From positions 62,001-126,000 of the forward strand of contig QPMI01000470.1 in the NCBI GenBank assembly GCA_004431415.1: 64,000 nt of DNA, written 5' to 3'. Below are positions 42,330 through 63,818 of this stretch, piece after piece. Position numbers and translations under genes: made by a program. How positions within the stretch are numbered: position 1 is the stretch's first letter; each line of letters begins with the position of its first letter. Below the pieces are notes generated by a model. That model saw nothing but the letters and a program-made list of their open reading frames with translations. It did not search any database and was not told the DNA's origin. This stretch comes from Cyanophora paradoxa CCMP329 (Eukaryota > Plantae > Glaucophyta).

Positions 42330-44048
42330 TGGCCAGATCCCCGGGCCCGCGTGCACGTGCGCACCGCCGAGACGTCGGGTTGAACGAGGTTAGCCTCGAA
42401 TTCGAAGACGTCCAGGTCCAGCTCCAGCTCCAGCTCGGTCTCCTCCTGTGGGGCCGAGGCTCAGATTCAAGTGCAGGGGCGGGGACCCCGGACCCGGGAC
42501 TCGGGATTTAGAGGGGGCCCCGGCCCGCGGCGGCCGCGTACCTCGCCGGCGAGGGTCTGGTCGGGCTCGTCGAGGCGGCCGTCCGCCGGGGGACCCTCCG
42601 CCGGGGCAGTCCCCGCCTGGGGAATGGCGCTGCAGTACTTGAGCGCGAACTGGTAGAAGCCTTTCCCCGCGTTCGCAGTGCAGGTCCTGCGCGCGCGCAG
42701 GGCGCAGGGCGCAACTGATCATGATCGAGTACTAGATGTGATCATCGCATTACGCAAGCTCTATATCTGCAAGTGAATCCGGAGGCAGCGCATGCGCATG
42801 CGCACTGGTACGTGGGAGGGCCGGTCACGGAGAGCTGCGTCCCGGCAGTGCACGTGCTCGTCGAAAAACAGGAGCCGCAATAGGGGCTGTTGACGACGGG
42901 TGTCGGGTCCGAGAAGGGAATGAAAGAGCATCCAATGGAGGTCCCGTTGCCTCCTTGGAAACAATCCCTACGCGCATACAGGTTATCGAGAATTAAATTA
43001 CAATGAATTGTAAGCTTATCGTAGTATGATAAAACTTATGCAGATATATAAATCGCACGTTTGGCTGCCCTTGACGCCCAAGCTTGTCCCCTACGTGAGC
43101 AAAAAACGAAAGCGCGCGCGATGTGAGCTGTCTTATTATTATCGTCAAACGCCGTGACGAATGCGCAATCAGGGCTGCTGGGCTCTTACACTGCCGTCAG
43201 GGCCGGACCAGCACATGCCCGAAGTCTCGTTGACGATGACGGTCGTCAGCTTCGTCAGTGTGCCGTTCGCTCTCGCTATGGTGTCCTCGGCCGCGGTCGA
43301 AAGCTGCCTCGACACGTGCGACTTTCCGCCGACAGCAGCGTCGAAGCACTTCCTGCGGCACGCGGGCGAGTGTTCGCGACGAATGCACTTTAGAATCGGA
43401 AGATCAAATGCGTACTTGTAGTCTATAGTATCGCCCAAGGAAACCCCAGTGCCGTTGTAACCGTCGTAGCAAGTTCCCTGCGTACGTACACGGAGCAACC
43501 ATGTGTCAGCAGCTAGCGCTGCAGCTGCATACTGTGCACATGACGGCGAATTCGAAAATCGGGGGTTTGGACCGTCGGACTACCTTGGAGAACTGATTCT
43601 CGCAGGACCATCCGCCCATGTTCGTGTAAATTCCTTTCATGGCATCGTAAGTCTCAGCAAAAACTGCAGAGCCTCCCTTTGCCCAGCACTCGCTGCGCGC
43701 GCCGTAAATTAATTATCATAAATACCTCGAGATGCAGACGGAAATTCAGAAAGGCTCTTCGGCACACTCCCTGATGTCGACCGGGCCGAGGCTGGTCGCC
43801 ATGACACCATCGTACTCGGTGATACCGCACCTGTCGACGTCGCCAGAAATTGAGAATGAACAAAAGTGCTCGCAGATCATTGCAATTGGATGTCACAATC
43901 AAAGCCAGATGCAGATTATTAGCACAGTTCGCAAGCGCACAAAAATTGATGAGCTCACCCGAACTTGTCCCAGCACGTGAGGATTGGCTTGCTATCCCAG
44001 CTCGTATACGTAACGGTGCCGTGCGTCGTCATGGTGGATTCCGCGCAT
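42330..44048 (-). pseudogene. Cys-containing multi-exon host gene, 5'-truncated by the viral-type segment at ~44050
   Basis: Exons CAESTMTTHGTVTYTSWDSKPILTCWDKFG (then GTGAG donor), GDVDRCGITEYDG, GTCYDGYNGTG...MCWSGPDG and RTCTANAGKGFYQFALKYC. No start codon before the AT-rich junction. Confidence 0.45.
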
Positions 44049-44321
44049 GAACCATGAACCATTTTCATTGTCCCATCGTGCGCCGTATTGTTTCGCTTCT
44101 TCTTTTTCGCTGTAAGGAACCGTGATATATACAATTTGATCGATTCCTTTTACTTCCTCTTTTGTGAGTTGTTTATACTTTTTCAAAAGTTCGCTATCTT
44201 TTTTAGTAGTATACCAAAGGTGAGTATCCGGATCCCATCGACCACCCATTTGTTTAACTTCCTTACGATCCTCGTAGCGTGAGACAATATAATAGCGGGT
44301 TGCTTTTGGTTTGGGTTCCAT
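43992..44321 (-). CDS. Tandem DUF5710-like protein (viral/plasmid type); the last ~18 codons read into host sequence
   Basis: YIVSRYEDRKEVKQMGGRWDPDTHLWY and YITVPYSEKEEAKQYGARWDNENGSWF; AT-rich and intronless. Confidence 0.75.
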   Translation of the reverse strand: MEPKPKATRYYIVSRYEDRKEVKQMGGRWDPDTHLWYTTKKDSELLKKYKQLTKEEVKGIDQIVYITVPYSEKEEAKQYGARWDNENGSWFMRGIHHDDARHRYVYELG

Positions 44322-44699
44322 TTTTAACAGAAGTTTAGATAAATCTTTATGTGATTAAAACGTATTCGATAGGGTGAATACAGGTAATCGAAGAAAATGA
44401 AATTTTGGTTTTGAATCGGGGGGATTACGTGGGGAATTGGTGTGGTTTCGGTGTGGGGATTACGTGGTATTGGTGTGGTGTTGGTTTGGTATTGGTGTGG
44501 TGTTGGTTTGTTGTCGGTTTGGTTTATTTTTTCGATCAAAGTACGACAATCGAGAAATTCCGTATATTATCGTGTAAAATGAATCGAAAAATCGGTTATG
44601 GTAAGGATTTATGAAATTCTATAAGATGTGAGACGATATATGGTATTGTGGGGCAGAACGCCCAATATACCATTTTTTGACTCGGATTTGGTTTGATGT

Positions 44700-44972: not shown

Positions 44973-45256
44973 ACACATAGTAAAATGCGGAGTTTTAACC
45001 CTCGGCTTAATCTTAATTGATTTTGTTGATATATCTCGTATATTCTATTTCAATCAATCGATAATCTGTGTATATCTTATCGAATATTCATTTATTTCGA
45101 TTATTTTGTATTCTTTTCGATATTTTATCGTAAATTTCTCTTATTTTCCGATTAGTCTTACTGAGTTAATCGATAATCTGTATATATTTCCGAATAATAT
45201 AACTGAATCTCAATTAGATCTTGCCTCTGGTTAAAACTCCGCATTTTACTATGTGT
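44973..45256. repeat. Perfect 28-bp inverted repeat pair at the left end of the element
   Basis: acacatagtaaaatgcggagttttaacc (44973-45000) and ggttaaaactccgcattttactatgtgt (45229-45256); no TSD visible. Confidence 0.9.
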
Positions 45257-45497: not shown

Positions 45498-45804
45498 GGT
45501 GTCACAGGTGTCACAGGTGTCACAGGTCAATCCCAAACTTTTGAGAGTTGATTTTTATATATATGAAAACTTTGGGATAGACCTGTGACACCTGTGAACA
45601 ACACCATTTATGGTAAGAGCCTCTTTTATATTGAAAAACTCAGTAACAATAAGTAAGAATTTTATCTATGTAATTCTACTTGAATAAACAAATGAAATAA
45701 TCGAGTGTCACAGGTGTCACAGGTCCATCCCAAACTTTTGAGAGTTCATTTTTATGCTATAGAAAACTTTGGGATAGACCTGTGACACCTGTGACACATA
45801 CCAT
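45498..45804. repeat. Two palindromic iteron arrays (GGTGTCACA)n - AT-rich spacer - (TGTGACACC)n
   Basis: Copies at 45498-45607 and 45705-45804. Confidence 0.9.
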
Positions 45805-46249
45805 ATTCAGTAAGGACCTCATATTTTGTGAAAATCTCAGTGTTAGTTGGTGTAGTTGATTCAAAAAATGCATTTTAAACTCTGATTCATTGTTATTTCC
45901 TGTGAAATTTGAGTCAACTCAACCCACTTAGTCAACCCTTGCATTGAATTCGTAACAAATTCCATATACTATTACTACTTTTACGATTAATATGAGTCAA
46001 CCTTGAGTCCACTTTAATATAAATATTATATAATAGGGGGAATCTAGGGGAGATGCTTACTAAATGCAGTGTCCGGGAAAATCTAAGATCCGGTTCGCGA
46101 AAGTAGCATTGTTGTATAGAGCATGCAAAGAGGATTCCGGCGATGGTCGCGGTTTTAATAGCTGATGAGTTGGTGAATAGTAACAGCAGTTTGTATGATT
46201 TTCTTGGATTTTTGGGTTCCGGAACCCAAACTTTACCCATTATCTATCC

Positions 46250-46356
46250 GTAACGCGTTACGCACGCGTTACGCACGCGTTACGCACGCGTTATGCACGC
46301 GTTATGCACGCGTTACGCATGCGTGACTCATGGGTTATGCATGCGTGACGTCACGT
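46250..46356. repeat. 11-bp CpG-rich tandem repeat (ACGCGTTACGC), about 9 units
   Basis: Directly visible; later units are degenerate. Confidence 0.9.
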
Positions 46357-46656
46357 CATATATGCATCATATATACACAAACCTCCGACATATAAACACT
46401 ATATATACACAAACCTCCGTTTTGCCGGTTGACCGAGAAAAAAATGTTTCGAAAAAATAGTAAAAAATATATATACATATACATTTTTATCGGCATCTTC
46501 AAACTGTCATATCTCATCACCAGATCATCAAAACGCAACGTTCTGCATAGCGCTGTGAAGCGCTTGATATGCTCTACAAGACTTTGTGTATATCATATGC
46601 ATATATGTATATCTGTCATACATATATTTGGAAAAAACTAGTTTTCGCCTAGCAAA

Positions 46657-48042
46657 CTAGCTAGTTTTGGTTCTTTCTCTTAGTGTTCTTTGAGGTTTAG
46701 GGGCTGTATATGACTCCTTAGTAGTCTGAAAGTCATTATACCATCTCTGGCTATTCACTTCTGAAAGTTTCTGTGTGCCTGCTATAGTGAGCTTTTTGAG
46801 TTCCCTATTAACTTTGCCAGTCTTCTCCTTTCTAGCCTCTATCAAAGGCTTATCTGGGACTTCATTAGCAGCTTCTATGCCCTCTCTTCTTATAGCAGCA
46901 TCAACCCTGGCTTCCTCTTTAGCTTGCTCTAAAGCATCTACTGTAGGGGTTTCCAGATACTCAACTGCATTCACAGGCAACAGCTCATGGAAAGCAAACC
47001 TGTTATCTATGATCTCTCCAGTGGGACTCTTTAGCTTAAACTTAAAGCCTTCTCTACTATTAACAGTGTAAACCATCCTAGACCAATTGTTACCCTGTTT
47101 AGCAAAGGGGTTCTTCTCTACTTTCACTCTAACAAACATGCCAGGCTGCATGGTATCAAGATAAGCTATTGATTTCTTGAATCTTTCATCTTCTAATCCC
47201 ACTATATACCTATAATGCTCCTCTGTAGTTTCACCTGGCTTCATCTTAGTAGCTGAGTGAACTGTATTATTGTAATTATACTCAATATCACCTAACACAT
47301 CAAAGAATCTAGCTGTATTATTGGCTATGCAGTAGTTTGTGATCAGTCTCTTAATCTGCTTGTTAAAGGCTTCAATTCGACCTTGGCTTCTGTGGTCAGC
47401 AGTTCCACTCACTTGGTGTTCTATGTATTTACTAGATAAATACTCCTGGAATATTCGATTTTGGAATTCACTCCCAGCATCTGATTGAACTTTTACTATG
47501 GGTCTTGCTACTCTCATTTCAAGCTGTTTAAATGCAGCTAATGTAGTGAGAGCTGATTTATCTCTGATAGGTATAATATACCCAGTTCTCAGTGTTGATT
47601 CCATTGCAGTCATAAAAGTATCATAGCCATTGTTTTGTTTCTTATAAGCTGGGAAAAAGAGCAAATCAATCACATAGGTATCAAGGGGTTGCCTGATTGG
47701 GACCATGGGATCTCTCTTTCTAGATATAGCAGGTGCATTGATCTGAACTACCTCTTGCTTTTTATAGAACTCTTGCAACTGCTTATAGGATTCTTCAGGT
47801 AACTCAGCCCTCATAGCTTGAAGCCCTTTGTAACCAGTTCTCACATCATAGAATCTCTTGGCAATCTTGCTAGTTTCTTTCACTGCAATAGCAACTGGGA
47901 TCTCCACAGGGACAAGCTCTTTCATCTCAGACTTTTTGACAATTCGAGATTCCCCCTTTTCCTCCTTTGGAACTGTGATAGGCAATAGGTTACCTTGTAG
48001 TTGATCAGTGGTTCTCCTTACTATTCTTCCAGTTGCTGGCAT
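46657..48042 (-). CDS. Retroviral-like (rve) DDE integrase, Polinton type
   Basis: YVIDLLFF (D), VQSDAGSEF (D), GRIEAFNKQIK (E), YNNTVHSATKMKP; no chromodomain visible. Confidence 0.93.
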   Translation of the reverse strand: MPATGRIVRRTTDQLQGNLLPITVPKEEKGESRIVKKSEMKELVPVEIPVAIAVKETSKIAKRFYDVRTGYKGLQAMRAELPEESYKQLQEFYKKQEVVQINAPAISRKRDPMVPIRQPLDTYVIDLLFFPAYKKQNNGYDTFMTAMESTLRTGYIIPIRDKSALTTLAAFKQLEMRVARPIVKVQSDAGSEFQNRIFQEYLSSKYIEHQVSGTADHRSQGRIEAFNKQIKRLITNYCIANNTARFFDVLGDIEYNYNNTVHSATKMKPGETTEEHYRYIVGLEDERFKKSIAYLDTMQPGMFVRVKVEKNPFAKQGNNWSRMVYTVNSREGFKFKLKSPTGEIIDNRFAFHELLPVNAVEYLETPTVDALEQAKEEARVDAAIRREGIEAANEVPDKPLIEARKEKTGKVNRELKKLTIAGTQKLSEVNSQRWYNDFQTTKESYTAPKPQRTLRERTKTS

Positions 48043-48045
48043 CTC

Positions 48046-51000
48046 TTAATTAAAAGGAACAGAATTAATACCATCTGGTAAGATGTATCTCTTTGCATCA
48101 AAGCAGTTTAGGGCAACCCTTCTACTCACAGTGTCTATTATTGTGTGATCTGCCCTTCTCTTCTGCTTTGCAGTCACAGTCTTGCTGATACCTGCAAATA
48201 AACACTGCTTAAAATCATTAAATTGGAGTTCCTCAGTGGAAGTCCCAGATAGCTTACTTCTCTCAATCTCAGCTGTTCTGAAACTGTAAACTTTGGCTCT
48301 CAGACCTACATACTCCAGGATTGCAGAACCTGGCATCTCATTTTTGTATTTACCTGGGGTCATTCTGTTAGATCCCCCTAGGTCCAAGGCATAAGATATA
48401 TTCTCTATATCTTTTGCAATGGTCTTAGATTCGATATATAGACAAAAGGAATCAGTATCATGGAATAGTAACTTGGCTTTGGACCACTGGGACCTTACAG
48501 TATCATAGAAGAACTTGTAGTTATGCAGTTTGGCTGCATCCAAAACATAAGCCCCAATTGCAACAGGCTTATCTAGCTTCACATGCTTTGTGTAAAACTC
48601 AAAGGCAACTGCCCTTTCACTTATGGGACTTGTTGATTTCACTAAAGGAGAGGCTGCATATTTCATAAATAGCTTCTCAGTGTTGGCAATCTTAACCACA
48701 GATCGACCTCTACATGATTCAATGCATTTCCCATAGATTGAATTATTCATGAGCTTATAGAAATCAGCCTCGAATTTATTCACTGCTTTCCTTCTCATCT
48801 CAGTGTTCAGCTCAATATATGATTTCATTACAGGAGCCACAGTGAATGATAGGACCCTGTGGACTTTTCTCAATTTCATCCCTTTGTCCAACAGATACTG
48901 TAGGAGAGGCTCAGAAATCACATAGTTTGTCACAGAACCAAAGGTTGCAGTTAGCTTAGGGGTTTTATCAAGCTCTTCTCCTGAGAGATCCAATAGGTTC
49001 TTTTGATATTGTGATAATTCTGCATATTCTACTATTTTCTTGTTAATAATTAGGGGGAAATCACTGTGATCCAGAAACAGCCTAATTGGGTAATCCAGAT
49101 CAACTTCCAGGAAACTGGATCTGTTATCTTGTGGGTTGAATTCGGTCTCCCATCTAAAATCACCAACTGGAATTGGCTGACTCAAACAGTAGCCATACAA
49201 GTTGTTAGCATCAAACAGCATTATATGGGAGTTCTCACCATCAGCCTCAGCATACCTACAAGGCATTGTTGCAAAGCCACCCCTGATTCCCTTCTCAACA
49301 AATTCGTATTGCTCTACATCACTTATAAGCTCTATTTTTGCCTTGGTGGTCCTAAACATAGCATCCCAAGATAGCCCAGGTGCAGATACATAATGAACTG
49401 GGTCAAGCCCATATACTGAGTGTGAAAGCCTTCTGAAGGCTTGGAATTTGTTCATTAACTCATCTACATCAGCAGCCCCAAAATCCATAAAATTGCTTGC
49501 ATCAATGAACTTGTAAAGACCCCACTGCAATGAAAGGTATTGATCAAAGTTTTTCGAGAGGATTTCGATTCGCTTTTTATCACCCATGCCTGCTATTTTT
49601 CTGAAAATGAATGTCCCACAGTCATCCATTTGGTCAACAACAACTGCAACTTTGGTTTGCTTTGAGATTCTCCTATGGAGATTGCAGTTTCTGCATGCAG
49701 GAGCAATATAATGACCTGTGTGATGATCATGATCCCTGCATTTGAAGTTCTCCTTGGTGAACCTCTCACTGCAAAGGTAACAGTGTTTGGTAGCTCTGTA
49801 AATTGCTTTCTGCTCATCTGTGAGTTCATTCATGGGAATATTGGTAAACAGAAAATCGATCAGTTCTCTTGCTTTGGATTCCAAGCATTCAAAGAGACCT
49901 CCCATTGGATCCTGACCCTCAAATCGAAACTCCTGAACATCTGCCCCAGTGACTATTCTAATGTTGACTGCTGAGACTTCCCTCTTGGATTTCGATGCAT
50001 CTATGGGGATGCTTCTATGTTCAATCTTGCAGTAAACCACAACAGGAAGCCAGACAGTTTTCCTAAGGTTTTTCAGTCCAAACTCTATGGTGGTCTCAGG
50101 CTTAGGAGTGATTCCCTTTGAGAGTCTCCAATCAATGCATCTGTTTGAGTCCACATGAGCAGTGAGTTTAGCCTCAGACCTGAATCGAGATAAACATGTG
50201 TCACAGTAGTGTAACTTTTGATCTTTGGTTTTATCAAGGGCAACTCTGAGAAGTCTTGAAAGGGACATAATAGTTATATAATGCCCATTCCCTTCATCAT
50301 CATGAATGAGCATAAGATTAATCTTTTGCTTTCTACCTGGGTTGCTGGATTGATGTAGGGGATATATAACATCTCGATCCATTCCAAATATGTTTATGCT
50401 GATGCCTGCATTTTGAGATTCGAATTTATCAATGATTTCAGCATCACAGGGAACAGGGAATGAGATGTTATCGAAATTGAGAGCCAGAGGATTATAAGCG
50501 ATTGCTGAGTATTTCCATTTGCGATATTGTGTAAGCTCACTTCTCTTGTGGGAATTCACATCTTTCCTATGGATCCATGCCAAAATGGCATTTTCAAAGC
50601 AAGAATCATCAATATTTCGAATATTCACTGTGGCTCTCTTGGCTGCAATTGATTCTGGTGTTTTAACATAGCAACCACCAGTTGGGGCATAACTCATAAT
50701 AGCAACTCTGAGCATTTCGATTCTCTCCAATCGATAGCTATCAACCACATTCATCTGCTCCTGACACATTTGGGCTGCTTTATTCAGCTCAGTTCGAATA
50801 TTTCTCGATTTGGTTAATACAAAATAATCACTGTAAATGTATTTCGATATCCAAACCTGTGGATTGCTGACTTTAACGAACTTGCAGATAAACGATAAGC
50901 GAACTTTGATTGCCCTGAATTGATCTAGACTGTCTCTTAAACGTTTTGGTAGAGAGGTTGCAATTCTATCTAAATATTCAATCACATCAACAACAACTTC

Positions 51001-51291
51001 CCTTCTGGCTCTGTATGTGAGCCAGCGATATAATTCATTCATTGCTGTACCATCTTCTGCCTCTGGTTCTATTTGCCTTAGGCGATCCAGTTCATCAAGA
51101 GTGTCAACTTTATCATAGAGGTTATTGGCTTTTCTGGTTAATTTTGCTAAAGTGGGTCTCCCCCTTGAAATAAATCCGATTTCCCGGTCATATTCAGCCT
51201 CTGTGATTTCATGGGCTGCATACAGTGTTCCAAGTAATCCCATGAGTTCCCATTTCTTCTCTCTAATGAGTCTGTTGCTAATTCGGGGCAT
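48046..51291 (-). CDS. polB: Protein-primed family B DNA polymerase with N-terminal extension, Zn finger and endonuclease VII-like insertion
   Basis: FDANNLYG (motif A), KLMNNSIYGK (motif B), FHDTDS (motif C), GIRGG, GLRAKVYS; CYLC...RDHDHHTG...ACRNCNL (EndoVII-like); NIDDSCF..AIL and GHY in the N-terminal part. Confidence 0.95.
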   Translation of the reverse strand: MPRISNRLIREKKWELMGLLGTLYAAHEITEAEYDREIGFISRGRPTLAKLTRKANNLYDKVDTLDELDRLRQIEPEAEDGTAMNELYRWLTYRARREVVVDVIEYLDRIATSLPKRLRDSLDQFRAIKVRLSFICKFVKVSNPQVWISKYIYSDYFVLTKSRNIRTELNKAAQMCQEQMNVVDSYRLERIEMLRVAIMSYAPTGGCYVKTPESIAAKRATVNIRNIDDSCFENAILAWIHRKDVNSHKRSELTQYRKWKYSAIAYNPLALNFDNISFPVPCDAEIIDKFESQNAGISINIFGMDRDVIYPLHQSSNPGRKQKINLMLIHDDEGNGHYITIMSLSRLLRVALDKTKDQKLHYCDTCLSRFRSEAKLTAHVDSNRCIDWRLSKGITPKPETTIEFGLKNLRKTVWLPVVVYCKIEHRSIPIDASKSKREVSAVNIRIVTGADVQEFRFEGQDPMGGLFECLESKARELIDFLFTNIPMNELTDEQKAIYRATKHCYLCSERFTKENFKCRDHDHHTGHYIAPACRNCNLHRRISKQTKVAVVVDQMDDCGTFIFRKIAGMGDKKRIEILSKNFDQYLSLQWGLYKFIDASNFMDFGAADVDELMNKFQAFRRLSHSVYGLDPVHYVSAPGLSWDAMFRTTKAKIELISDVEQYEFVEKGIRGGFATMPCRYAEADGENSHIMLFDANNLYGYCLSQPIPVGDFRWETEFNPQDNRSSFLEVDLDYPIRLFLDHSDFPLIINKKIVEYAELSQYQKNLLDLSGEELDKTPKLTATFGSVTNYVISEPLLQYLLDKGMKLRKVHRVLSFTVAPVMKSYIELNTEMRRKAVNKFEADFYKLMNNSIYGKCIESCRGRSVVKIANTEKLFMKYAASPLVKSTSPISERAVAFEFYTKHVKLDKPVAIGAYVLDAAKLHNYKFFYDTVRSQWSKAKLLFHDTDSFCLYIESKTIAKDIENISYALDLGGSNRMTPGKYKNEMPGSAILEYVGLRAKVYSFRTAEIERSKLSGTSTEELQFNDFKQCLFAGISKTVTAKQKRRADHTIIDTVSRRVALNCFDAKRYILPDGINSVPFN

Positions 51292-51403
51292 AGTTCCTAA
51301 CTTGTTCCTACTAAAAGGGGAGGTTTTAAATGGGGATAGTCCGAACGCAAATATACTTAAAGGAATTTTTATATTGTATATATATAGAAGTCAAAAAGCA
51401 AGA

Positions 51404-51721
51404 ATGAATGCGGAAAGTCAAAGAACGCTTAGTATTTCAGCAATCATGAAAAGCATTCGAGAAAGAAATGACACATGTGAAAACTCAGAATATAAACGAA
51501 TTCTATGCAGTCTATGTAAATGTGATGAGACTAGCTATGATCAGTTTGTATGTGATCAATGCTTCAAGACAGTCTGTATAGGATGCATGAAACAGCAAGA
51601 GGAAATAGTCGGGAATACAAAATGCCCATTCTGTAGAAACACATTACAGTATCCAGAGTTCACCTTGTTCAACATTCTGGACTACAATGCATGTGATGTT
51701 GAAACAATTACATTTGGCTGA
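51404..51721 (+). CDS. RING-like zinc-finger protein
   Basis: CSLC...CDQCFKTVCIGC...CPFCR. The likely start is the ATG at 51404, after a TATATA-containing motif. Confidence 0.75.
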   Translation: MNAESQRTLSISAIMKSIRERNDTCENSEYKRILCSLCKCDETSYDQFVCDQCFKTVCIGCMKQQEEIVGNTKCPFCRNTLQYPEFTLFNILDYNACDVETITFG

Positions 51722-51777
51722 GCAACAAAAAATGATTTAAAGAATTCTCTATATATATTAAGAGAGACAGAGGAAAA

Positions 51778-52032
51778 ATGCCACTCAGTGAAGCCCAGAA
51801 GAGAGCTATGAAGAGGTACCAGCAAACTGAAAAAGGTAAGGCTCAAATCAAAAAGTTTAACGAAAAAATAGCCACACAGCTTAGAGATCTATATCAAACC
51901 GATGATACCTATAGAGCCATGAAAATAGCAAGTTCATGTCAGCGAAAGTATGCAGCCAATGCAGTCTGCTTTGTCAAGTATTTGTATGATGTCCCTTACT
52001 CAAACAGAGGGAGAAAATCGAAACATGTTTAA
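51778..52032 (+). CDS. Small basic helical protein
   Basis: 84-aa ORF MPLSEAQKRAMKRYQQTEKGK, with the same upstream motif as its neighbours. Confidence 0.7.
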   Translation: MPLSEAQKRAMKRYQQTEKGKAQIKKFNEKIATQLRDLYQTDDTYRAMKIASSCQRKYAANAVCFVKYLYDVPYSNRGRKSKHV

Positions 52033-52244
52033 ATTATTTTTCCCAGCATATTACTAGGCTGGGATATGCTGTTTATTCGCTGAAATAACCATTCATCCTT
52101 TTTATATCTAAACCACTCGATAAGTCGTGTGGAAATATTTCGTAGGGATACTTTCTCGATTTCCAACAAAAAATGATTGGGGGACCCAAAACTACTTAAA
52201 GAAAAATCTTCTATATATATAAAAGGGACCCCCAATCGCTGAAA

Positions 52245-54572
52245 ATGAACGCCAAACAGACTAAATCGCTCAAATCGCTCGCTAACTGGCTTCGTTCTGA
52301 TGAGGAACTCGCCAAAAACATGATTATCCCAGTGAAACCTGACAGCAAAGACCCTGTTTTCAAGCATAAGGGAGGTGCTTGGTCCTGGGAAAAGTATGAG
52401 GAAGCGCTGGCAACTAATCAGTATGTATCTTGGGGCATTCTGCTCTCAGACAACATGATGGTTATTGACTTTGATGATGAGGAGAACTTTGAGAAATTCC
52501 GGGATATGTTTCCTGATGACTTTGATGCCAATCAGCCCATGGCAAAAACTAAAAAAGGCTATCATGTCTACTTTAAACGACCTGAGGAGTTCACTAAACT
52601 CAAAATCACCGATAAGGCTCCAGGCTTTAAAGGCTTTGAAAAGGTTGACCTGAAAACAATCACTGGAACTGGAACTTCTGGATTGATCAATGTGTGTCCC
52701 AGTGTCAACAAGTCTTGGGTAATCTCCCCATGGGATGATACCTGTGATTTCAATGAGCCTACTGATGACTTCAAAAAGTGGATTATAGATAATTACATCT
52801 ATAAGAGTGAGTATACTGCTAATGCTACCTCATATGATGAACTGGAAAACAATATTATCAAAGAGCTGGTGGATATGGGATTTATGCATCCCAATATAAT
52901 CTCTAAAACTGAACTTGGCTTTAACTTTGATGCTGCTAACAAGGGACTCAATTGCCCATGCTGCAATGGTTCACATGAATCGAATAACTGGTATGTTATG
53001 AAAGCTAAAGGAGATGATAACAAATACATTGTGTCAAGCTACAGTGGAAATTGCAAAAAACGATTCATCTGCATTGGAATGCAATCTGATATCTTTAATC
53101 TTATAGATAAATCCGCTGGTTCTGGTGGCGCTCATTATGATGTGAGTTTAGTATGCAAAGAGGTTCTTAAACACACTTGGAGATACTCCAAAAAGTCATG
53201 GTTCAAACTCAATACTGATACTGGGATTTGGGAGCTTGATGACACAAACCTAAAGATTTACCTAGATATAAGCCGTCTTGTTGTCCCCCAATACCTTGGG
53301 AGGGCTGTGCATTATAGTCAAAGAGCTTTAAAGGATGAGGAAAACAAAGCAACTTTCGAAGAAAAATCCAAAACATTGATGACCATTGCCAAAAATCTTA
53401 AACAATCAGGATTTCGCAAATCCCTTCTGACTGACTTGGTCCCACTGCTGAATGATGATGAATTCTTTGAGAAGATTGACACTGTACCATATGTGATTGG
53501 ATTCGAAAATGGTGTATTTGATCTGACCACTATGACTTTCAGAAAGGGTAAACTTGAAGATATGGTGAGCAAGACTGTGGGTTATGACTATACTGAAAAT
53601 GTAGACCCCAAGAAAATAGAGCATCTCAATCAGATTTATAAAGAGATTGTGGATGATCCAGCAGAGCGAAAGTATCTTCTGGCATCCATTGCAATTGCTC
53701 TCAGTGGATCAACTAAATCCCAGAAGTTCTATATGTGGACTGGTGCTGGTGCTAATGGGAAATCACTTGTTCAGGAATACTGCAAACAAATATCTGGTCG
53801 TTATTACAGCCCTCTCGAAATATCCTATTGGACTAAGCCTAAAAAGAACTCATCAGAGGCTACTCCTGAACTTGCCAAACTCCTTGGAAAGCGACTTGTA
53901 TTCAGTAATGAGGCTGAAGATGGTGATAAACTGCAGATCTCCAAGATTAAGGAGGTCACAGGTGGAAATGAAATGACTGTGAGAGCCTTGTTCAAAGACC
54001 CAGTTATCCTTACCCCAATGTTTCAGGTCTACATTACAACTAATGACAATTTGACTATAAATAAACCAGACTTTGCAATTCAAAGAAGGCTTTCCTATCA
54101 GAGATTCAATAATATATTCAGAGAGAAGCCAGAAGCAGGTCAGAAGAAAGCTGATCCAACTCTGTTCACACTACTTCACAATGATGATGAGTATAAGATG
54201 GCTCACATGAAGATATTACTGGATATGTGGAAGAACAAAGAGGTTGAAGAGATCTTAAGGGATCCCCCTCAATCCATTATTGAACAAGGGATAAACTTTA
54301 TAACTGAAAATGATAAGATTGGTGAATGGCTTCGAGATAATTTCGAGGTTACACATAATGCTAACGACTTTGTTTCCAGTGATATCATTTACAGATCATA
54401 CAAAAGTGTTGATGATAAAGTTGAATGTGTATCTGTTATGAAAAGAGTAAGGGAAATCTTCAATGTTAAATCAGAGGTTAAACGAATTCATGGAACCAGA
54501 GCAAGGGGCTACATTGGACTTCGAAAGATAACAAGGGTTCAAGAAGACAATGGAGAGGATGTTGAATATTAA
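52245..54572 (+). CDS. AEP primase-polymerase fused to a D5-like superfamily 3 helicase
   Basis: VIDFDD and KTKKGYHVYF (AEP motifs), CPCCNGSH Zn site, FENGVFDL (D5_N), GAGANGKS (Walker A), FSNEAE (Walker B), ITTND (motif C), and a winged-helix-like C-terminus ending RGYIGL. Confidence 0.93.
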   Translation: MNAKQTKSLKSLANWLRSDEELAKNMIIPVKPDSKDPVFKHKGGAWSWEKYEEALATNQYVSWGILLSDNMMVIDFDDEENFEKFRDMFPDDFDANQPMAKTKKGYHVYFKRPEEFTKLKITDKAPGFKGFEKVDLKTITGTGTSGLINVCPSVNKSWVISPWDDTCDFNEPTDDFKKWIIDNYIYKSEYTANATSYDELENNIIKELVDMGFMHPNIISKTELGFNFDAANKGLNCPCCNGSHESNNWYVMKAKGDDNKYIVSSYSGNCKKRFICIGMQSDIFNLIDKSAGSGGAHYDVSLVCKEVLKHTWRYSKKSWFKLNTDTGIWELDDTNLKIYLDISRLVVPQYLGRAVHYSQRALKDEENKATFEEKSKTLMTIAKNLKQSGFRKSLLTDLVPLLNDDEFFEKIDTVPYVIGFENGVFDLTTMTFRKGKLEDMVSKTVGYDYTENVDPKKIEHLNQIYKEIVDDPAERKYLLASIAIALSGSTKSQKFYMWTGAGANGKSLVQEYCKQISGRYYSPLEISYWTKPKKNSSEATPELAKLLGKRLVFSNEAEDGDKLQISKIKEVTGGNEMTVRALFKDPVILTPMFQVYITTNDNLTINKPDFAIQRRLSYQRFNNIFREKPEAGQKKADPTLFTLLHNDDEYKMAHMKILLDMWKNKEVEEILRDPPQSIIEQGINFITENDKIGEWLRDNFEVTHNANDFVSSDIIYRSYKSVDDKVECVSVMKRVREIFNVKSEVKRIHGTRARGYIGLRKITRVQEDNGEDVEY

Positions 54573-54625
54573 ACAAAACGATTAATGATTGATTTGTATA
54601 TGTAATTTTTATAGCCTTACTGGAA

Positions 54626-54735
54626 ATGGTGTTGTTCACAGGTGTCACAGGTCCATCCCAGGGAAAGTCAAACATAAAAAATGATTTTGAAAATCGGTGG
54701 GATAGACCTGTGACACCTGTGACACCTGTGACACC
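54626..54735. promoter_or_regulatory. Candidate replication origin: third palindromic iteron array, inverted relative to 45498-45607
   Basis: atggtgttgttcacaggtgtcacaggtccatccca...tgggatagacctgtgacacctgtgacacctgtgacacc starts ~54 bp after the helicase stop. The origin function is inferred. Confidence 0.65.
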
Positions 54736-56407: not shown

Positions 56408-57201
56408 TTATAAACCGCGTTTATATCGCATCAATTTATTGCTATGGACTTGGCTTTTCACATCTTTGGGGGCTTCCTCTTTTTCTGGTGGTTTCAGTTC
56501 ATCCTCTTTCTTTTTTGGCTTCCTGTGGAAGCGAGGAAAATCGAAATCTCCAACTAAATCGGCTTTATCAACATAGTAGCCCACATTATATTTGAAAGAT
56601 GTATAAACGAGGAACTGGTATGAGTGAACATACTCTTCAAACAGTTTATAGAAGTCTTCTTTTCGAGGAAAAGTCGAAAACTCCTCTGCAAATGCTTCCA
56701 GCTCTTTTTGATTGCTTGCACAAACCATAATTACTATATCACTATTGCAGCGAATAACACTTGCGACCTTTCTTAATTTTTGGGAAATAGTTATAATTGA
56801 TATATTGACATGTCTGCCACGAACATAAAGCATTCCCACTGTTTTATCTCGACTGAGATCCAGCTGGTCATTTTCTATCATATCCTCTAAAATCACCAGC
56901 ATATGGTTAAGTTCTTCTCCTTTCTCCCTTTTTGCCTCTCTTTCTTTTATAATTTTCGACATGTATTGGGGATCCCATGCACCCAGTTGAACAGTAGCAG
57001 CTTTGTCCCAAAAATGTGAAAATGAGGTAGCCGATATAATAAGTGTTGTATCAATCTTTTTGGCATCATGCAGCTGTTTCAAATAATATTTTACAGCTTC
57101 AGTTTTTCCGCATCCACTTTTTCCTAGTATGAGTAGTCGAAAAGGGGTTCTATCATTTCACCAGCATTGAATTCCTCCAGTTCAGAACTTGGTATAGGCA
57201 T
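56408..57201 (-). pseudogene. A32/FtsK-like genome-packaging ATPase with a 1-nt frameshift near the 5' end
   Basis: PFRLLILGKSGCGKT (Walker A, ~57105-57147, in the frame of ORF 56408-57082), LVILED (Walker B), RGRHVNISIITISQ, IRCN. The ATG at 57201 is 119 nt from 57082 and therefore out of frame. Confidence 0.85.
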
Positions 57202-57257
57202 TGTGTATCTTTCTATAAAGAAACAGATAAAAATAATGCAAGGTGACTGAATATGGT

Positions 57258-57989
57258 TTACAGGTTAGAAAGGAATCTTTTAATGCAGCCCTCAATATCA
57301 GTTTCGGTGTATGGGATTCTCAGCAGTTTAATGTTGTTAGCTTCACAGTATCGATTTTTTATTCCATCATTAATTTGAACCTGTTTAAATTGCGCTTCAC
57401 CATTATCAGAGCCAAACCACTTTCTTGGTTTGAAATGTTGAATACCATCATATTCTATTGCAATTCGAAGAGAATCAATGTAGAAATCGAACCTTAATGG
57501 AAACTTATTTCTACAGTCTTTGAACATATGTTGTTGTGTATACCCCACTCCAATTAAGTCCAACACTTTGCACACCTCTTCCTCACCTTTTGAAGATCTA
57601 CAAAATGGGCAACCAGTATTTCGAATATGAATGATTGGGGGTTGCATGAACTCTTTGTTACAAGAGTTGCATCTTATACAAACTGGTGTGTGAGATTTCA
57701 CATATTCTACTTTATTATAACAATATTTGTCTCCATGTGTTTTTCTTGATTGCTCTATAAAGGTTTCCAGCTCTTTTCTGCGTTCATTTCCCAACCGCTG
57801 AAAACTACATTTCTTACAGCTTGACCCTCTTAGATGGTGATCCACCCGCTGTTCAAATATTGAACTGCAAGTCAGACAAGTAATGAGAACTTTATCCTTG
57901 CATTTCGTAAATTCAACCTTCGAATAATCGAATTTACCATTATGCTTGGCATTTGCACGATCTACAAACTCAGTAATTGTGATGGGCAT
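57258..57989 (-). CDS. Zn-ribbon-repeat PD-(D/E)xK (Vsr/DUF559-like) endonuclease, homing-endonuclease type
   Basis: Two F...H..K[FY].Y.KVE[FY]....V.I.C..C...F.Q....H....C..C repeats, then SKGEEEV...LRFDFYI...IAIEYDGIQHF...D..KN.YC....IKLLRIPY. Confidence 0.85.
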   Translation of the reverse strand: MPITITEFVDRANAKHNGKFDYSKVEFTKCKDKVLITCLTCSSIFEQRVDHHLRGSSCKKCSFQRLGNERRKELETFIEQSRKTHGDKYCYNKVEYVKSHTPVCIRCNSCNKEFMQPPIIHIRNTGCPFCRSSKGEEEVCKVLDLIGVGYTQQHMFKDCRNKFPLRFDFYIDSLRIAIEYDGIQHFKPRKWFGSDNGEAQFKQVQINDGIKNRYCEANNIKLLRIPYTETDIEGCIKRFLSNL

Positions 57990-58021
57990 TTGATTTTTAA
58001 ATGTTTTCAGGCGAAGCCTCT

Positions 58022-59687
58022 TCAGGCGAAGCCTCTTTCTCAAACCCAAAAACCGACGATCTAAATTCCTTTTTTAACCTTTTTTTCCACTCAAGATCCC
58101 CCCTGCTAAATAATTCCCGTGTCGCACTCCCTCGAGGCAGAATTAATAATTCTGCCTCGACACGGACGCGATTGCTGCTAGTCACACACCCACACGAACC
58201 CCCACAGACCTCTCTAGATCCATTTTAGCGTCGTGGCTGCCCAAAGACGACCGCTCCCCCGTAGGCATCCCGCGAAAATCGAATTTCCCTCTGGATCAAT
58301 TCCGGTACTTAACCTCCGACAAATGCAGTCCGAGTCCGAAGGTGGGACCCGGTCCCGCCCGGTCCCGCGACGAAATCGCGCCAGGGACGCCCCAGAACGA
58401 TACAGAATGACGCGCGAGGGCGAGCGCATCGCCGCAAGCTCGATTTTGGGCGCCGTCGACGCTCCAGTGCGAAGAGTCGGCCGAAAATTTGATCCGGCCG
58501 GTTCCGGCCGGTCCCGCGACGCGCGCAATCGATGCGTACTGGCGCGCATAGACATACCAGGGCCCGCGCACCCCCGAAATCCGCTTTTCGAACCCGGAGC
58601 AGCGCAGGAAGGTACCGGACAGCAAAAATCCGATCCTGGACAGACCCGGATATCTTTCCGCGCGCCCACGCCGCGGCGCATGCGCGGAACGATAGCATAA
58701 CCATTTAAGATGTAGAGAAAGACTTCCGCACGGTGTCTAAATGCACCAGGTCACGAGCACCCAGCCGACCCCGAAAATTCGATCCTTGATAGACCTGAAC
58801 ATCTTTCCGCGCGCCCTCGCATTCTCGCGCATGCGCATCGTCGCAATATTCATTTGAGATTTTATCAAAGTTTTCCACAAGCTTTGAAGACGCGAAAGAG
58901 CACGAGAACCCAGCCGACGGCAAAAATTCGATCCTGCACACGCCTGGACATCTTTCCGCGCGCCCACGCCACGGCGCATGCGCGGAACAATAGCATAAGC
59001 ATTTGAGATGTAGATCAAGCGTTCCGCGCGCTTTGCAGATGCGCCGGGCCGCGGGGACCCAGCCGACCCCGAAAATTCGATCCTTGAGGGAACTGAACCG
59101 CGTTCCGCGCGCCCTCGCGTCCTCATGCATGGGCATCGCTATAATATTCATTTGAGAGCTTTTCAAAGCGTAATGCAAGCCCCAAGGGCGCGACAGGGCG
59201 CGAGAATTCAGCCGACCCCGAAAATTCGATCCTGCATGGACCTGCACGTCTTTCCGCGCGCCCTCGCCTCCGCAGCCCCGCACATCGATGCTATATGCAT
59301 TCGAGATTGTGTTTAAGCGATTCGCAAGCTCTGTGCATGCGCCTGGCCGCGAGAACCTCGCCCTCCCGGCCTCCCCCCAACAATACATTAATATTAAATA
59401 AATCTCCTATCAATCTGCTCCACCAGTTAAAAGCAAGAGTTACCGGTTCAACTCCTCCCCTAGTTCATTATATATTCGCTCTCCTCATTACATTGCTCCC
59501 TGGCCAGCGAGCTCTCCCTCGAGCTGGCTATAGCGGGCCAGCCCATTGCCCCAGTGCCAAGCCGGCGAAACTTTTGAAGCCCGGCCATGCAACTGGGCGG
59601 GGCTGCAGCTGCCCGCCTACTGTGACAGCCGCGAGGGCGTCCGCGAGGCTTCGCCGTACTTAGTGCTCCGCAGGAGCACGGATCTTG
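58022..59687 (+). mobile_element. Same family, inner copy B nested in copy A
   Basis: TCAGGCGAAGCCTC...GAGGCTTCGCC (59645-59655), hairpin 59663-59679, ending CTTG at 59687; inserted between T58021 and T59688. Confidence 0.8.
58620..59340. repeat. ~149-bp internal tandem repeats (about 5 units; also at 60275-61000)
   Basis: aaaattcgatcc...atctttccgcgcgccc recurs at ~58625, 58774, 58922, 59072 and 59221. Confidence 0.85.
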
Positions 59688-61365: not shown

Positions 61366-62733
61366 CTATAAATTAATTCTGCGTAAACCATCTTTGTCCA
61401 AAATTATATAGGAATGCATGAGAGCGCGAACATTAACATCGATAACCTTATCTGAAGGCATGTAGAGTGTGAGGAAAGATGATGAGGAATTCGTCAGGTC
61501 AACAAATCCACTTTGAGCAATATTTCGAATCGCCTTTTCTCCATCAATGCAGAAGCTTAAACCTGAAAGGACATAGCGATCAGCAACCTTATCCATGTTA
61601 GAGCATTTGAAGGCATCAGCAATTAGCTCAGCACCTTTGAGTAGGGAAATTGGCTCAGTGGCATAAAGTCGCTGTCCATTAATTTCAACAGTGAATGTGA
61701 TGTCTTTGGAGTTGGCATAGGTCTTAAGAACACTGTGGGAGCCATTGGCTTTGTCAACAGTTGCATTATCACGAACTGAAACAAGCAGAGCATATACAAG
61801 ACCTGAGATTTGAGAGAGGTTAATTCGATTGGGTTGGGCATTGCCCTTGGCAGGGAAAGCACTAGCATCAACAAACCCAATGTCTAGAGCAGGAATAGCC
61901 ATGCCAGTAGTCTTTACTTTTTCAATTACAGTAGCGAAAAGCTCATCAGAAACATTAATAGCATGCATGTAAAGGCGAGGAGAAGTAATAGAAATAACAG
62001 GGGTTGTTGCACCAAGACTGAAAGTTGTGATATTTTGACCAACATGGGCAAGGGTTCCATCTGTAAAGTTTCCAAGACCATCATCAGCAGTTGCATCAAC
62101 AGTTCCAACAGCAGTTGTGAGTTCACGACCACCATAGGAAGTTTCGACATAACCCTTGTCAGCATCCTTAAACCAAACAGTAACAACCATTTCACCAGAT
62201 AAAGCACCAAGGGGAAGGTAGTGATTGAGCCAAGGCACTGGGATTTCAACGAAAAATGAGCCACCAAGTCGGTTGGTTCCATGAGCAGGGATACCATGAA
62301 CCATGCCCATTGATCGTTTCTTTTTAGCTAGTTGATCCTCCGAATAATAGACCAGGGGGAAATGAGCAAGGAAATCAGAGGGAATGTGGTAGGTGTAAGA
62401 TCCATAGGTAATTTCAAGTCGCTGAACTAAAGCACCAACTGGGCGAGTGTATCCATTGCGAACAAGGTCCGTATCACCAGCAAAAGTGATGGCTGGAAGG
62501 TCGAAAGCAAGTTCGAGTTTTCCACAGAAATTGTAGCGAGGTAGCTTGAAGGAAATGCGATTTCCAACATTATTCTCAAAAGTATTGCTGGGATTCACAA
62601 CAACTAGAACTGGCTTAGACTTGGATTCGAGACCAAGCATAAGGGAGTTATCCAGGAAAAAGGCTTTCGCCTCCTCTGGGGTTGTTAGGGCTTCTTTCAG
62701 CGAAAGTCTTTGAAGAGTGGAAGTGATATCCAT
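61366..62733 (-). CDS. Double jelly-roll major capsid protein (PLV type)
   Basis: 455 aa, beta-rich; GNRISFKLPR...LELAFDLP and YLPLGALSGEMVVTVWF motifs; adjacent to the penton gene. Likely start is the ATG at 62733. Confidence 0.8.
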   Translation of the reverse strand: MDITSTLQRLSLKEALTTPEEAKAFFLDNSLMLGLESKSKPVLVVVNPSNTFENNVGNRISFKLPRYNFCGKLELAFDLPAITFAGDTDLVRNGYTRPVGALVQRLEITYGSYTYHIPSDFLAHFPLVYYSEDQLAKKKRSMGMVHGIPAHGTNRLGGSFFVEIPVPWLNHYLPLGALSGEMVVTVWFKDADKGYVETSYGGRELTTAVGTVDATADDGLGNFTDGTLAHVGQNITTFSLGATTPVISITSPRLYMHAINVSDELFATVIEKVKTTGMAIPALDIGFVDASAFPAKGNAQPNRINLSQISGLVYALLVSVRDNATVDKANGSHSVLKTYANSKDITFTVEINGQRLYATEPISLLKGAELIADAFKCSNMDKVADRYVLSGLSFCIDGEKAIRNIAQSGFVDLTNSSSSFLTLYMPSDKVIDVNVRALMHSYIILDKDGLRRINL

Positions 62734-62786: not shown

Positions 62787-63818
62787 TTATGCGAAGCTTG
62801 TAATAACTGGATAGGAAGGGTGAAGCTGTGACATTCGCATCTTAAAGTATTCATAAACTGGGTCCCCAGCTGGCTCATCACCATAGCGAATTTCAAAGGT
62901 AAGATGAACAGGTTGACCCTCAAAATCAATTGGTTCATTAATAGCATTTACAATATCAACCGAGAAAGTGGATAATCCAACCTTTTTGTTATAGTATTTA
63001 TAAAGTGGATGAGCCTCTGTCGAATTGTAAACTACATGCTCACCATAATCTTTGTCAGGGACCACTATTTTATGGAAGTAACCAGTCAGAAGACCATCCC
63101 CACATTGCACCAGATCACCCAGCTCCTTTACTCTCACAAACAAAACACTGTCCCTGGTCTTCTCAGGCTCAAAAGAAGATAGAATACCGTTTACTCGAGT
63201 CCCAGTAAAGATACCATCAGTGAGAGCATCATAAACTTGTGATTGGATTGAGGAATTGCCATATCTTCCAGGATCAAGACCAAGCAGTCTCCCTGAACTC
63301 AATAGCTTTTGAATTGTTTGCAGGTTTGGATTTACAGCAAGTGAGAAAGCCAGGTAAAAAGGTTTTTCGGAATGGAATACTATTCGTTTCAGTGACTCAT
63401 CCCATTTGCAGCGAAGAGATGGTTTAGGATTTTTTAAATCGAACTTTTCATTAATAACATTCACCAGTTGTTGGTGGCTTTGAATGGGGGCTTTGCGACT
63501 TATAATGATTTGTTTCCACTGTTCAAAGTCCTCAGCTGGGCGAACTGTGGGGATACCATCAATTCCAGCTCCTGCATATTGTTCAGAATAGTAAATACTA
63601 AATGAATTGTCGATTGTTACATCTCCAACTTTGGTTTCACCACTCACCATAGGGATGCTGTTATAAAATTCGGCTGATACCAGTCTCACAGCCCTCACAT
63701 TCTCATAAGAACTTGGGAGTCTAGCCACAAAGCTTGATGTGGGACCATCACCAGAGATTGTATTAAATGAGCTAACCTCAATGTAATCCACAGGCATTCT
63801 TCTTTTATCTATATTCAT
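62787..63818 (-). CDS. Minor capsid (penton) protein, single jelly roll
   Basis: YIEVSS...SSFVARLPSSYENVRAVRLVSAEFYNS at the N-terminus and LSTFSVDIVNAINEPIDFEGQPVHLTFEI at the C-terminus. Confidence 0.8.
   Translation of the reverse strand: MNIDKRRMPVDYIEVSSFNTISGDGPTSSFVARLPSSYENVRAVRLVSAEFYNSIPMVSGETKVGDVTIDNSFSIYYSEQYAGAGIDGIPTVRPAEDFEQWKQIIISRKAPIQSHQQLVNVINEKFDLKNPKPSLRCKWDESLKRIVFHSEKPFYLAFSLAVNPNLQTIQKLLSSGRLLGLDPGRYGNSSIQSQVYDALTDGIFTGTRVNGILSSFEPEKTRDSVLFVRVKELGDLVQCGDGLLTGYFHKIVVPDKDYGEHVVYNSTEAHPLYKYYNKKVGLSTFSVDIVNAINEPIDFEGQPVHLTFEIRYGDEPAGDPVYEYFKMRMSQLHPSYPVITSFA

What the first reader, a model, noticed from the sequence alone, without database searches (positions are those of the whole stretch)
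45498..54735. Phage-satellite-like iteron origins: one behind the primase-helicase and inverted copies at the element end, bracketing the replication/integration module
Seen: three ~105-bp units of (GGTGTCACA)2-3-GGTC.ATCCCA, an AT-rich ~40-bp spacer, then TGGGATAGACC-(TGTGACACC)1-3, at 45498, 45705 and 54626. The arms of the last unit are the reverse complement of the first while the spacer has diverged, and it sits ~54 bp after the helicase stop. Known: P4 and PICI/SaPI origins consist of oppositely oriented iterons around an AT-rich core bound by the primase-helicase, and in SaPIs the origin lies right after the rep gene; Polintons are assumed to replicate from their termini by protein priming. 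Inference: this eukaryotic element has internal helicase-loaded origins. The inverted pair also delimits a 9.2-kb integrase-pPolB-RING-helicase cassette that could invert or move without the capsid genes.
Basis: partly seen in the sequence, partly recalled or inferred. Interest (0 to 1): 0.85.

Follow-up and report, generated by a model that had tools for sequence, protein, structure and literature searches.

The report
Scattered iteron origins in a Polinton
A virus-like mobile element inserted in a eukaryote's genome carries three copies of a mirror-image repeat block, one right behind its DNA-unwinding gene, and some related viruses carry the same layout several times with their own repeat word, so these blocks are likely the landing sites where that enzyme starts copying DNA from inside the element; this has not been tested.

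Summary
The three palindromic units are real: all 10 exact GGTGTCACA copies in 64 kb (0.17 expected) lie in them, and the inner iterons span exactly 77 bp in each. They belong to a high-copy endogenous Polinton-like element (rve integrase, PolB2, A32 ATPase, capsid). Its primase-helicase ends in a predicted RFX-type winged helix and resembles SaPI5 PriRep in fold. Of 12 IMG/VR loci in this helicase's clade, 5 (four lineages, including a virophage and a PLV-like contig) have inverted iteron arms directly behind the helicase gene, each lineage with its own word; 7 show none. Three loci (two lineages) carry 3-5 copies spread through the genome in both orientations, with no integrase or PolB match. 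The units are therefore most likely dispersed helicase-loading origins of SaPI type (about 0.62). The main rival is a transcript 3'-end hairpin. Binding and firing are untested.

The parts
45498..45605 (.). Unit 1: three iterons and inner arm, 37-bp AT-rich spacer, inner arm, one perfect and one degenerate inverted iteron
45704..45798 (.). Unit 2: tandem duplicate of unit 1 (197-bp period, 82% identical)
54626..54735 (.). Unit 3: inverted relative to units 1/2, 53 bases after the helicase stop; match to unit 1 extends to 54616
   Evidence: contigs of diverged sister copies cover it (records 6 and 21)
52245..54572 (+). Primase-helicase, 775 aa: Prim-Pol, D5_N, superfamily-3 ATPase, C-terminal winged helix
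   Evidence: Pfam; model; fold matches
54318..54533 (+). Predicted RFX-type winged-helix domain (residues 692-763), the candidate iteron reader
   Evidence: 1dp7_P Z 9.9, rmsd 2.0, 70 of 76 aligned; 8zjr_M Z 10.5, rmsd 2.5, 78 of 82
48046..51291 (-). Family B polymerase of the protein-primed kind (DNA_pol_B_2) with an endonuclease-VII-like insert
   Evidence: Pfam (54 bits, cut-off 25.8)
46657..48042 (-). rve-family integrase
   Evidence: Pfam (E 1e-4, below the curated cut-off); PHROG transposase E 4e-11
51242..51721 (+). Cysteine-rich ORF, RING-like by eye
   Evidence: no Pfam hit
56408..57140 (-). A32-like packaging ATPase; in this copy the Walker A motif lies upstream of the first ATG and the frame is broken near its 5' end
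61366..62733 (-). Likely double jelly-roll major capsid protein
   Evidence: ESM Atlas 0.98 to clusters with Capsid_N / Capsid_NCLDV on 12-18% of members (a lead); no Pfam hit
62787..63818 (-). Possible minor capsid (penton) gene, from position and size only
   Evidence: no family hit
44973..45256 (.). Probable left boundary of the element, with a 41-48-bp inverted repeat (44973-45020 / 45210-45256)
   Evidence: GC falls from 0.6-0.8 to 0.26; a low-depth contig leaves the window's sequence after 44972 and summed depth rises about tenfold

Best explanation
The three units are likely iteron origins read by the element's own primase-helicase: its predicted winged-helix tip would bind the 9-bp-period repeats on both arms, load the helicase ring without a loader, open the AT-rich core and prime DNA synthesis from inside the element. 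Shown: the repeats, their fixed geometry, the position of unit 3 behind the gene, and the recurrence of the layout with other words behind related helicases, in several copies per genome in some relatives. Predicted: the winged helix and an intact primase domain. Inferred by analogy with SaPI Rep/ori: binding, melting and priming. The copies near the left end would be extra loading sites, not the ends of a separate cassette. They could open the duplex near the terminus for the protein-primed-type polymerase or fire as origins themselves. Which polymerase extends the primers is unknown.
For: (1) Geometry is held while the spacer drifts: inner span 77/77/77 bp in the window, 65-66 in four complete L278 units, 79-80 in L297, 79 in L300, 74 in L269 (coordinates). 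(2) The C-terminal domain has helix-strand-helix-helix-strand-strand order at high confidence and matches RFX DNA-binding domains; the helicase part matches vaccinia D5 (Z 30.6, rmsd 5.8, 410 aligned) and SaPI5 PriRep (7ola, Z 26.1, rmsd 5.4, 404 aligned, model 275-764); the N-terminus matches the pRN1 primase-polymerase (Z 12.6, rmsd 3.4, 166 aligned). (3) In a helicase tree, a clade of 82 sequences (FastTree 0.91) holds the window protein and 12 unique IMG/VR loci; 5 of 12 have inverted iteron arms within about 130 bp after the stop: L269 (GGGCCGTCA), L297 and L300 (GATGTAGAT; helicases 94% identical, one lineage), L278 (GGAGGCAGA) and L198 (GTGCCAC, a looser layout). (4) Among 150 unique helicase loci tested earlier, mostly outside this clade, the detector fired 4 times (L198, L203=L269, L223, L063), against 20 of 1575 other genes. 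(5) The window's own word, doubled, occurs in 38 IMG/VR loci; in 15 of 38 it lies in a cluster just behind a VapE- or D5-type primase-helicase gene, and in 2 more inside the 3' end of an AAA_25 helicase gene. (6) In SaPIs, oppositely oriented iterons around an AT-rich stretch lie immediately after rep and are bound by its winged helix (PMC9371898, passages).
Against: No binding or replication data. 7 of 12 clade loci (L322, L276, L338, L274, L283, L273, L270) show no such unit behind the helicase; their whole loci were not scanned with a uniform detector. L297 and L300 were spotted by eye, because the detector's GC filter missed them, so the clade contrast is not a clean single-test result. 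Outside the clade L321, L323 and L223 also have inverted repeats behind the helicase, in other layouts, and part's output was cut. The first screen of 80 loci showed no enrichment (3 of 80 against 115 of 2799 windows). The units fold into strong RNA hairpins (z -7 to -12), and 10 of 11 units in L278, L297 and L300 sit next to the 3' end of an ORF. The block is about 100 bp with 4-5 iterons, smaller than a SaPI ori (about 300 bp, 6-12 iterons). The element also has a protein-primed-type polymerase, which needs no internal origin. Too few lineages to test covariation of word and winged-helix residues.
Confidence: 0.62

Rival explanations
1. The units act as RNA hairpins that end transcripts, as the terminator hairpins of mimiviruses, their virophages and transpovirons do.
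For: Strong folding. 10 of 11 units in L278, L297 and L300 lie at the 3' end of an ORF, several between convergent genes. L300 is a virophage (Sputnik-type capsid), and terminator hairpins are noted for virophages and transpovirons (PMC7031253, passages).
Against: About three in four gaps touch a stop codon if gene orientation is random, so 10 of 11 is weak (inference). One L300 unit lies between divergent starts. A hairpin needs no tandem 9-bp period, no virus-specific word and no fixed span. Arm copy numbers are unequal, and one inner position is mismatched on the + strand in 3 of 3 window units. The same word clusters behind phage helicases in arrays that are not single hairpins. Short loops for mimivirus hairpins are recalled, not read.
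Confidence: 0.15
2. The helicase or another element protein binds the units, but as operators, enhancers or packaging/segregation sites that do not start replication.
For: Several copies in intergenic gaps. Baculovirus hrs, which are dispersed palindromes, double as enhancers and no single one is essential (PMC6669502, passages). 7 of 12 clade loci show no unit behind the helicase.
Against: Facing arms at a fixed distance around an A/T-rich core, and the place directly after the helicase stop, match the tested SaPI origin better than an operator.
Confidence: 0.11
3. The inverted pair marks the ends of a 9.2-kb integrase-polymerase-helicase cassette that inverts or moves without the capsid genes, or serves as recombination sites for module exchange.
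For: Units 1/2 and 3 are inverted and enclose these genes. Read from 45500 to 54733 the stretch has TG...CA ends. Mobile PLV 'end modules' and a repeat both in the TIR and behind the end module of Gezel-14T have been proposed (PMC11296320, passages). Any inverted 100-bp repeat permits rare homologous inversion.
Against: No 4-6-bp duplication at either choice of ends (by eye). No strand-switch joint and no joint at a unit among the 15 shown of 55. The high-copy sequence starts about 525 bp left of unit 1. No site-specific recombinase was found in the window's part of the element. Relatives with no integrase match hold 3-5 units.
Confidence: 0.08
4. The units are a small host MITE or a selfish repeat, or a coding repeat, with no role for the element.
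For: Unit 3 lies in a 132-codon ORF that reads VTPVTPVTP, and the same word is a coding repeat in several IMG/VR loci. Copy number of the unit alone in the host was not measured.
Against: No copy in the 45 kb of flanking host-like DNA. Units 1 and 2 lie outside ORFs of 60 codons or more. Diverged sister contigs run from the helicase gene through unit 3 (records 6 and 21). The layout recurs in free viruses.
Confidence: 0.04

Closest known systems
SaPI/PICI replication module: Rep or fused PriRep5 with its iteron ori (PMC9371898, passages; bioRxiv 10.64898/2026.10.17.759575, first fifth of the text plus passages)
   Same: Fused primase and superfamily-3 helicase with a C-terminal winged helix (fold match to 7ola); oppositely oriented iterons around an AT-rich stretch directly behind the gene.
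   Different: Eukaryotic Polinton-like element; block of about 100 bp with 4-5 iterons at a 9-bp period; three copies in the window and 3-5 in some relatives; a protein-primed-type polymerase in the same element; nothing tested.
Polintons/Mavericks and PLV 'end modules' (PMC4405056 and PMC11296320, passages)
   Same: rve integrase, PolB2, A32 ATPase, capsid gene, D5-like primase-helicase. Barth et al. already proposed that inverted repeats beside PLV primase-helicase genes act as their origin, and noted a repeat in the TIR and behind the end module of Gezel-14T.
   Different: Polintons are assumed to start at their termini by protein priming. The word 'iteron' does not occur in PMC11296320; the passages read give no motif-level or multi-copy origin description.
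Baculovirus homologous regions (hrs) (PMC6669502, passages)
   Same: Several imperfect palindromes spread through a dsDNA virus genome; proposed origins, individually dispensable.
   Different: hrs are 30-bp palindromes tied to IE-1; here the arms are tandem iterons 65-80 bp apart tied by position to a D5-like helicase. An analogy only.
Phage P4 ori1 with alpha primase-helicase (recalled; a search for its repeat word found no relevant paper)
   Same: Oppositely oriented short repeats read by a primase-helicase; the recalled repeat resembles the degenerate iteron of units 1 and 3.
   Different: Not checked against any text or sequence here.

Membership tests
SaPI-type iteron origin | Lies directly downstream of the rep/primase-helicase gene | tested here: met
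   Unit 3, 53 bases after the stop; units 1 and 2 do not meet it
SaPI-type iteron origin | At least two iterons on each side, oppositely oriented, around an AT-rich stretch | tested here: met
   2-3 on one arm, 1 perfect plus 1 degenerate on the other; spacer 70-81% AT in an element of about 61% AT
SaPI-type iteron origin | Cognate superfamily-3 helicase with C-terminal winged helix | tested here: met
   Predicted model and fold matches; a prediction, not a solved structure
SaPI-type iteron origin | 6-12 iterons over about 300 bp, one ori per element | tested here: not met
   4-5 iterons in about 100 bp; three units in the window
SaPI-type iteron origin | Specific binding, melting and autonomous replication | not testable with these tools
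   Needs EMSA, melting and replicon assays
SaPI-type iteron origin | Word changes together with winged-helix residues | tested here: inconclusive
   Five lineages, five words; domains about 20% identical; the one close pair shares both
Polinton/Maverick | pPolB, rve integrase, packaging ATPase, capsid protein | tested here: met
   integrase below the Pfam cut-off, capsid an Atlas lead
Polinton/Maverick | Maturation protease; terminal inverted repeats with target duplication | not testable with these tools
   The element runs off the window at 64000 and no whole genome is held
Polinton/Maverick | Terminal-protein domain on the polymerase | tested here: inconclusive
   No solved relative by sequence
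TIR transposon or invertible cassette 45498-54735 | Target-site duplication at the outer ends | tested here: not met
   Flanks read share no 4-6-bp direct repeat
TIR transposon or invertible cassette 45498-54735 | Inverted or free-standing copies in the host | tested here: inconclusive
   None among 15 of 55 joints shown; contigs only
Mimivirus-type terminator hairpin | Stable hairpin at transcript 3' ends | tested here: inconclusive
   Folding met; none of the 20 holder runs is on record as RNA, so 3' ends are unknown

The most novel reading that the evidence does not exclude
A branch of D5-like primase-helicases in Polintons, PLVs and virophages carries its own SaPI-style iteron origin, multiplies it across the genome with a virus-specific word, and so replicates from several internal origins. 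This element would then hold two initiation systems at once, protein priming at the ends and primase priming inside, the intermediate step proposed between Polintons and giant viruses.
Probability: 0.4. Interest if true: 0.8.

Novelty: new variant of a known kind. Interest (0 to 1): 0.62.

Why it matters
The papers read here assume that Polintons start replication at their termini, and give no defined origin for virophages or PLVs with D5-like helicases. This gives a defined 100-bp target and a defined 72-residue domain for a binding and replicon test, with natural word variants (four other lineages) as specificity controls. If the units fire, an element with a protein-primed-type polymerase also initiates internally, which bears on the proposed switch from terminal to primase-driven replication in giant-virus evolution (PMC4405056). 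The units could also mark virophage and PLV contigs and explain incompatibility between them. Four library searches found no description of iterons in these viruses; the library lacks most subscription papers, and earlier notes of this scan report similar layouts in other genomes.

Tried and rejected
No whole genome is held, so the right end, TIRs and a genome-wide unit count are open. Single-protein scans of IMG/VR with the helicase and the capsid protein found no relative. A 20-base unit motif in JGI metagenomes gave 4 of 4 chance matches inside GC-rich bacterial genes. The polymerase search gave one weak hit and no solved relative. The first iteron screen behind 80 mostly giant-virus core D5 genes showed no enrichment (3 of 80 against 115 of 2799); L063/L068 were rejected as a coding repeat on the opposite strand. 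A uniform whole-locus detector with shuffled controls and a scripted target-duplication check did not run, so target duplication was judged by eye. Summed contig depth was lower over the helicase and unit 3 than over integrase, polymerase and capsid genes in 4 of 4 runs; contig depth is no copy number, so this is not used as evidence. A finer look at sister copies of the left end was not obtained, so the terminus and variation inside units 1 and 2 are open. A separate model of the winged-helix domain was not obtained; the full-length model was used. The 605-aa L278 protein stays unassigned, so L278 is not called a virophage. The 66 loci were fetched but not analysed. A search for the P4 repeat word gave nothing relevant. 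PMC5636890 and PMC10301787 (passages) showed no account of such units. Supplements were not read.
Full report
Observation. All 10 exact GGTGTCACA copies in the window lie in them, against 0.17 expected. Each has 37 bp between ATCCCA and TGGGAT and 77 bp from the start of the inner left iteron to the end of the inner right one. Units 1 and 2 are a tandem pair with a 197-bp period. Unit 3 is inverted: it matches unit 1 in reverse over 124 columns at 80% (E 2e-23) against E 1e-6 forward, while its spacer is not significantly like the others in either direction.

Setting. From about 44973 the GC content drops from the 50-80% of the flank to about 39%. The AT-rich part encodes an rve-type integrase, a DNA_pol_B_2 polymerase, a Prim-Pol/D5_N/superfamily-3 helicase and an A32 ATPase, and a likely jelly-roll capsid protein (a lead). 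It runs off the window. Twenty of 22 listed runs, all of one coded organism, hold about half its words; these may include the source and are not independent support. On four of these runs the left flank lies on one low-depth contig while the element is covered by thousands of short, varied contigs: a high-copy family. Diverged contigs run from the helicase gene through unit 3 (records 6 and 21: 25 and 40 other letters, 12 gaps), so sister copies keep it. One low-depth contig follows the window to 44972 and then leaves it, which places the probable left boundary there; units 1 and 2 are subterminal. Whether they are part of a TIR cannot be told.

The protein. The model of the 775-aa protein (mean pLDDT 88.7) matches vaccinia D5, SaPI5 PriRep (Z 26.1, rmsd 5.4, 404 aligned) and ASFV C962R over the helicase, and the pRN1 primase-polymerase over the N-terminus. 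Residues 692-763 match RFX winged-helix DNA-binding domains (Z 9.9, rmsd 2.0, 70 of 76; Z 10.5, rmsd 2.5, 78 of 82). In SaPIs such a domain binds iterons that lie directly behind rep, facing each other across an AT-rich stretch (PMC9371898, passages; bioRxiv 10.64898/2026.10.17.759575, first part and passages).

The word elsewhere. The doubled word occurs in 38 IMG/VR loci. I scanned 25 neighbouring ORFs from 24 of them. In 15 of 38 loci it sits in a cluster just behind a VapE-like (14) or D5-like (1) primase-helicase gene, in 2 inside the 3' end of an AAA_25 helicase gene. About 8 look like coding repeats by eye; the rest were not resolved.

The layout elsewhere. A first set of 80 helicase relatives was mostly giant-virus core D5 and showed no enrichment (3 of 80 against 115 of 2799 windows). 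With more loci, the detector fired behind 4 of 150 unique helicases (3 more were too short) and 20 of 1575 other genes; two of the four were the only two loci then in the window's clade, one (L063) was a coding repeat, one (L223) a different inverted doublet. After a clade-directed scan, a midpoint-rooted FastTree of 211 unique loci plus 150 proteins gave a clade of 82 sequences (support 0.91) with 12 loci. Five have inverted iteron arms just behind the helicase stop: L269, a PLV-like contig with A32 ATPase and GIY-YIG genes; L300, a virophage by its capsid gene, and L297, whose helicase is 94% identical to it; L278, a 22-kb contig of unassigned type; and L198, a helicase gene in a 548-kb giant-virus contig, with a looser layout. 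Each lineage has its own word, four of the five loci at a 9-bp period like the window, and the span is fixed within each virus to 1 bp. The window's inner CCAAACTTTT recurs in L297 only inside units and in the L269 unit. Seven of 12 show nothing behind the helicase. L297 and L300 were seen by eye, and L321 and L323 outside the clade also have inverted repeats there, so the contrast is suggestive, not a clean test.

Multiplicity. L278 holds five units (one cut by the locus end), L297 three and L300 three (one cut), in both orientations; L269 and L198 show one in the DNA held. None of the 12 clade loci gave a tblastn match to the window's integrase or polymerase, and Pfam found neither among the ORFs scanned. 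Several copies per genome are thus a trait of part of this family. That removes the need to read the window's inverted pair as cassette ends. No target duplication flanks the pair, and none of the 15 joints shown of 55 changes strand or lies at a unit. The joints that are shown skip the nuclease gene and repeat block between ATPase and capsid genes (57250 to 61353).

Mechanism. Most likely the helicase binds the arms with its winged helix, loads itself, opens the core and primes synthesis (0.62; all steps inferred from SaPI). The left-end pair may load the helicase near the terminus for the protein-primed-type polymerase or fire on its own. The main rival is a transcript-ending hairpin (0.15): the units fold strongly and 10 of 11 in L278, L297 and L300 touch an ORF's 3' end, though most gaps in a gene-dense genome do. 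A bound site that is not an origin gets 0.11, cassette ends 0.08, a MITE or coding repeat 0.04.

Prior knowledge. Polintons are thought to replicate by protein priming, and some encode D5-like primase-helicases (PMC4405056, passages). Barth et al. proposed that inverted repeats beside PLV primase-helicases are their origin and described mobile end modules (PMC11296320, passages). Baculovirus hrs are the precedent for dispersed palindromic origins (PMC6669502, passages). Searches for iterons with Polintons or virophages found no relevant paper (listings only). Earlier notes of this scan report like layouts in other PLVs and giant viruses; they are unchecked, I did not test them, and they lower the surprise. 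Verdict: a real feature, a new variant of a known origin type, with a direct test available; interest 0.62.

Noticed in passing
window 58037-61312: Two tandem copies of a 1.65-kb repeat (83% identical), each with 149-bp internal arrays, ending in a short GC hairpin followed by CTTG; very high contig depth. Sister contigs join 57250 to 61353 without it. The ends recall a non-autonomous Helitron (recalled, untested).
   Followed up: partly
window 57258-57989 (-): Homing-endonuclease-like ORF (PHROG 559, E 4e-55) between ATPase and capsid genes, inside the stretch that some sister contigs skip.
   Followed up: partly
window 46242-46351 and 46357-46607: Seven 11-bp-period copies containing ACGCGT, followed by TGACGTCA and a 25-bp inverted repeat, between unit 2 and the integrase stop; could be a host-factor enhancer or the inner end of a TIR.
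   Followed up: no
window 43992-44521: DUF5710 ORF whose 3' end runs into single-copy flank near 44030-44060, then GT-rich 11-bp-period repeats: probably the remains of another element left of the main boundary.
   Followed up: partly
window 48046-51291 (-): Polymerase motifs look intact by eye (DANNLYG, NSIYGK, DTDS) but the proofreading exonuclease motifs look degenerate (consensus recalled); if so, a polymerase without proofreading.
   Followed up: no
window 24957-26066 (+): Reverse-transcriptase ORF (RVT_1) in the host-like flank.
   Followed up: no
L282 and L283 (one 50,046-bp contig): The same helicase match lies at identical distances from both ends in opposite orientation: the gene seems to lie inside a long terminal inverted repeat; no iteron unit behind it.
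   Followed up: no
L223, just after the helicase ORF: Two 19-bp direct repeats mirrored by two inverted copies after a shortened D5 ORF.
   Followed up: no
L321 and L323, just after the helicase stop: Repeated GGGAAC...GTTCCC palindromes behind core-type D5 genes, a layout unlike the units.
   Followed up: no
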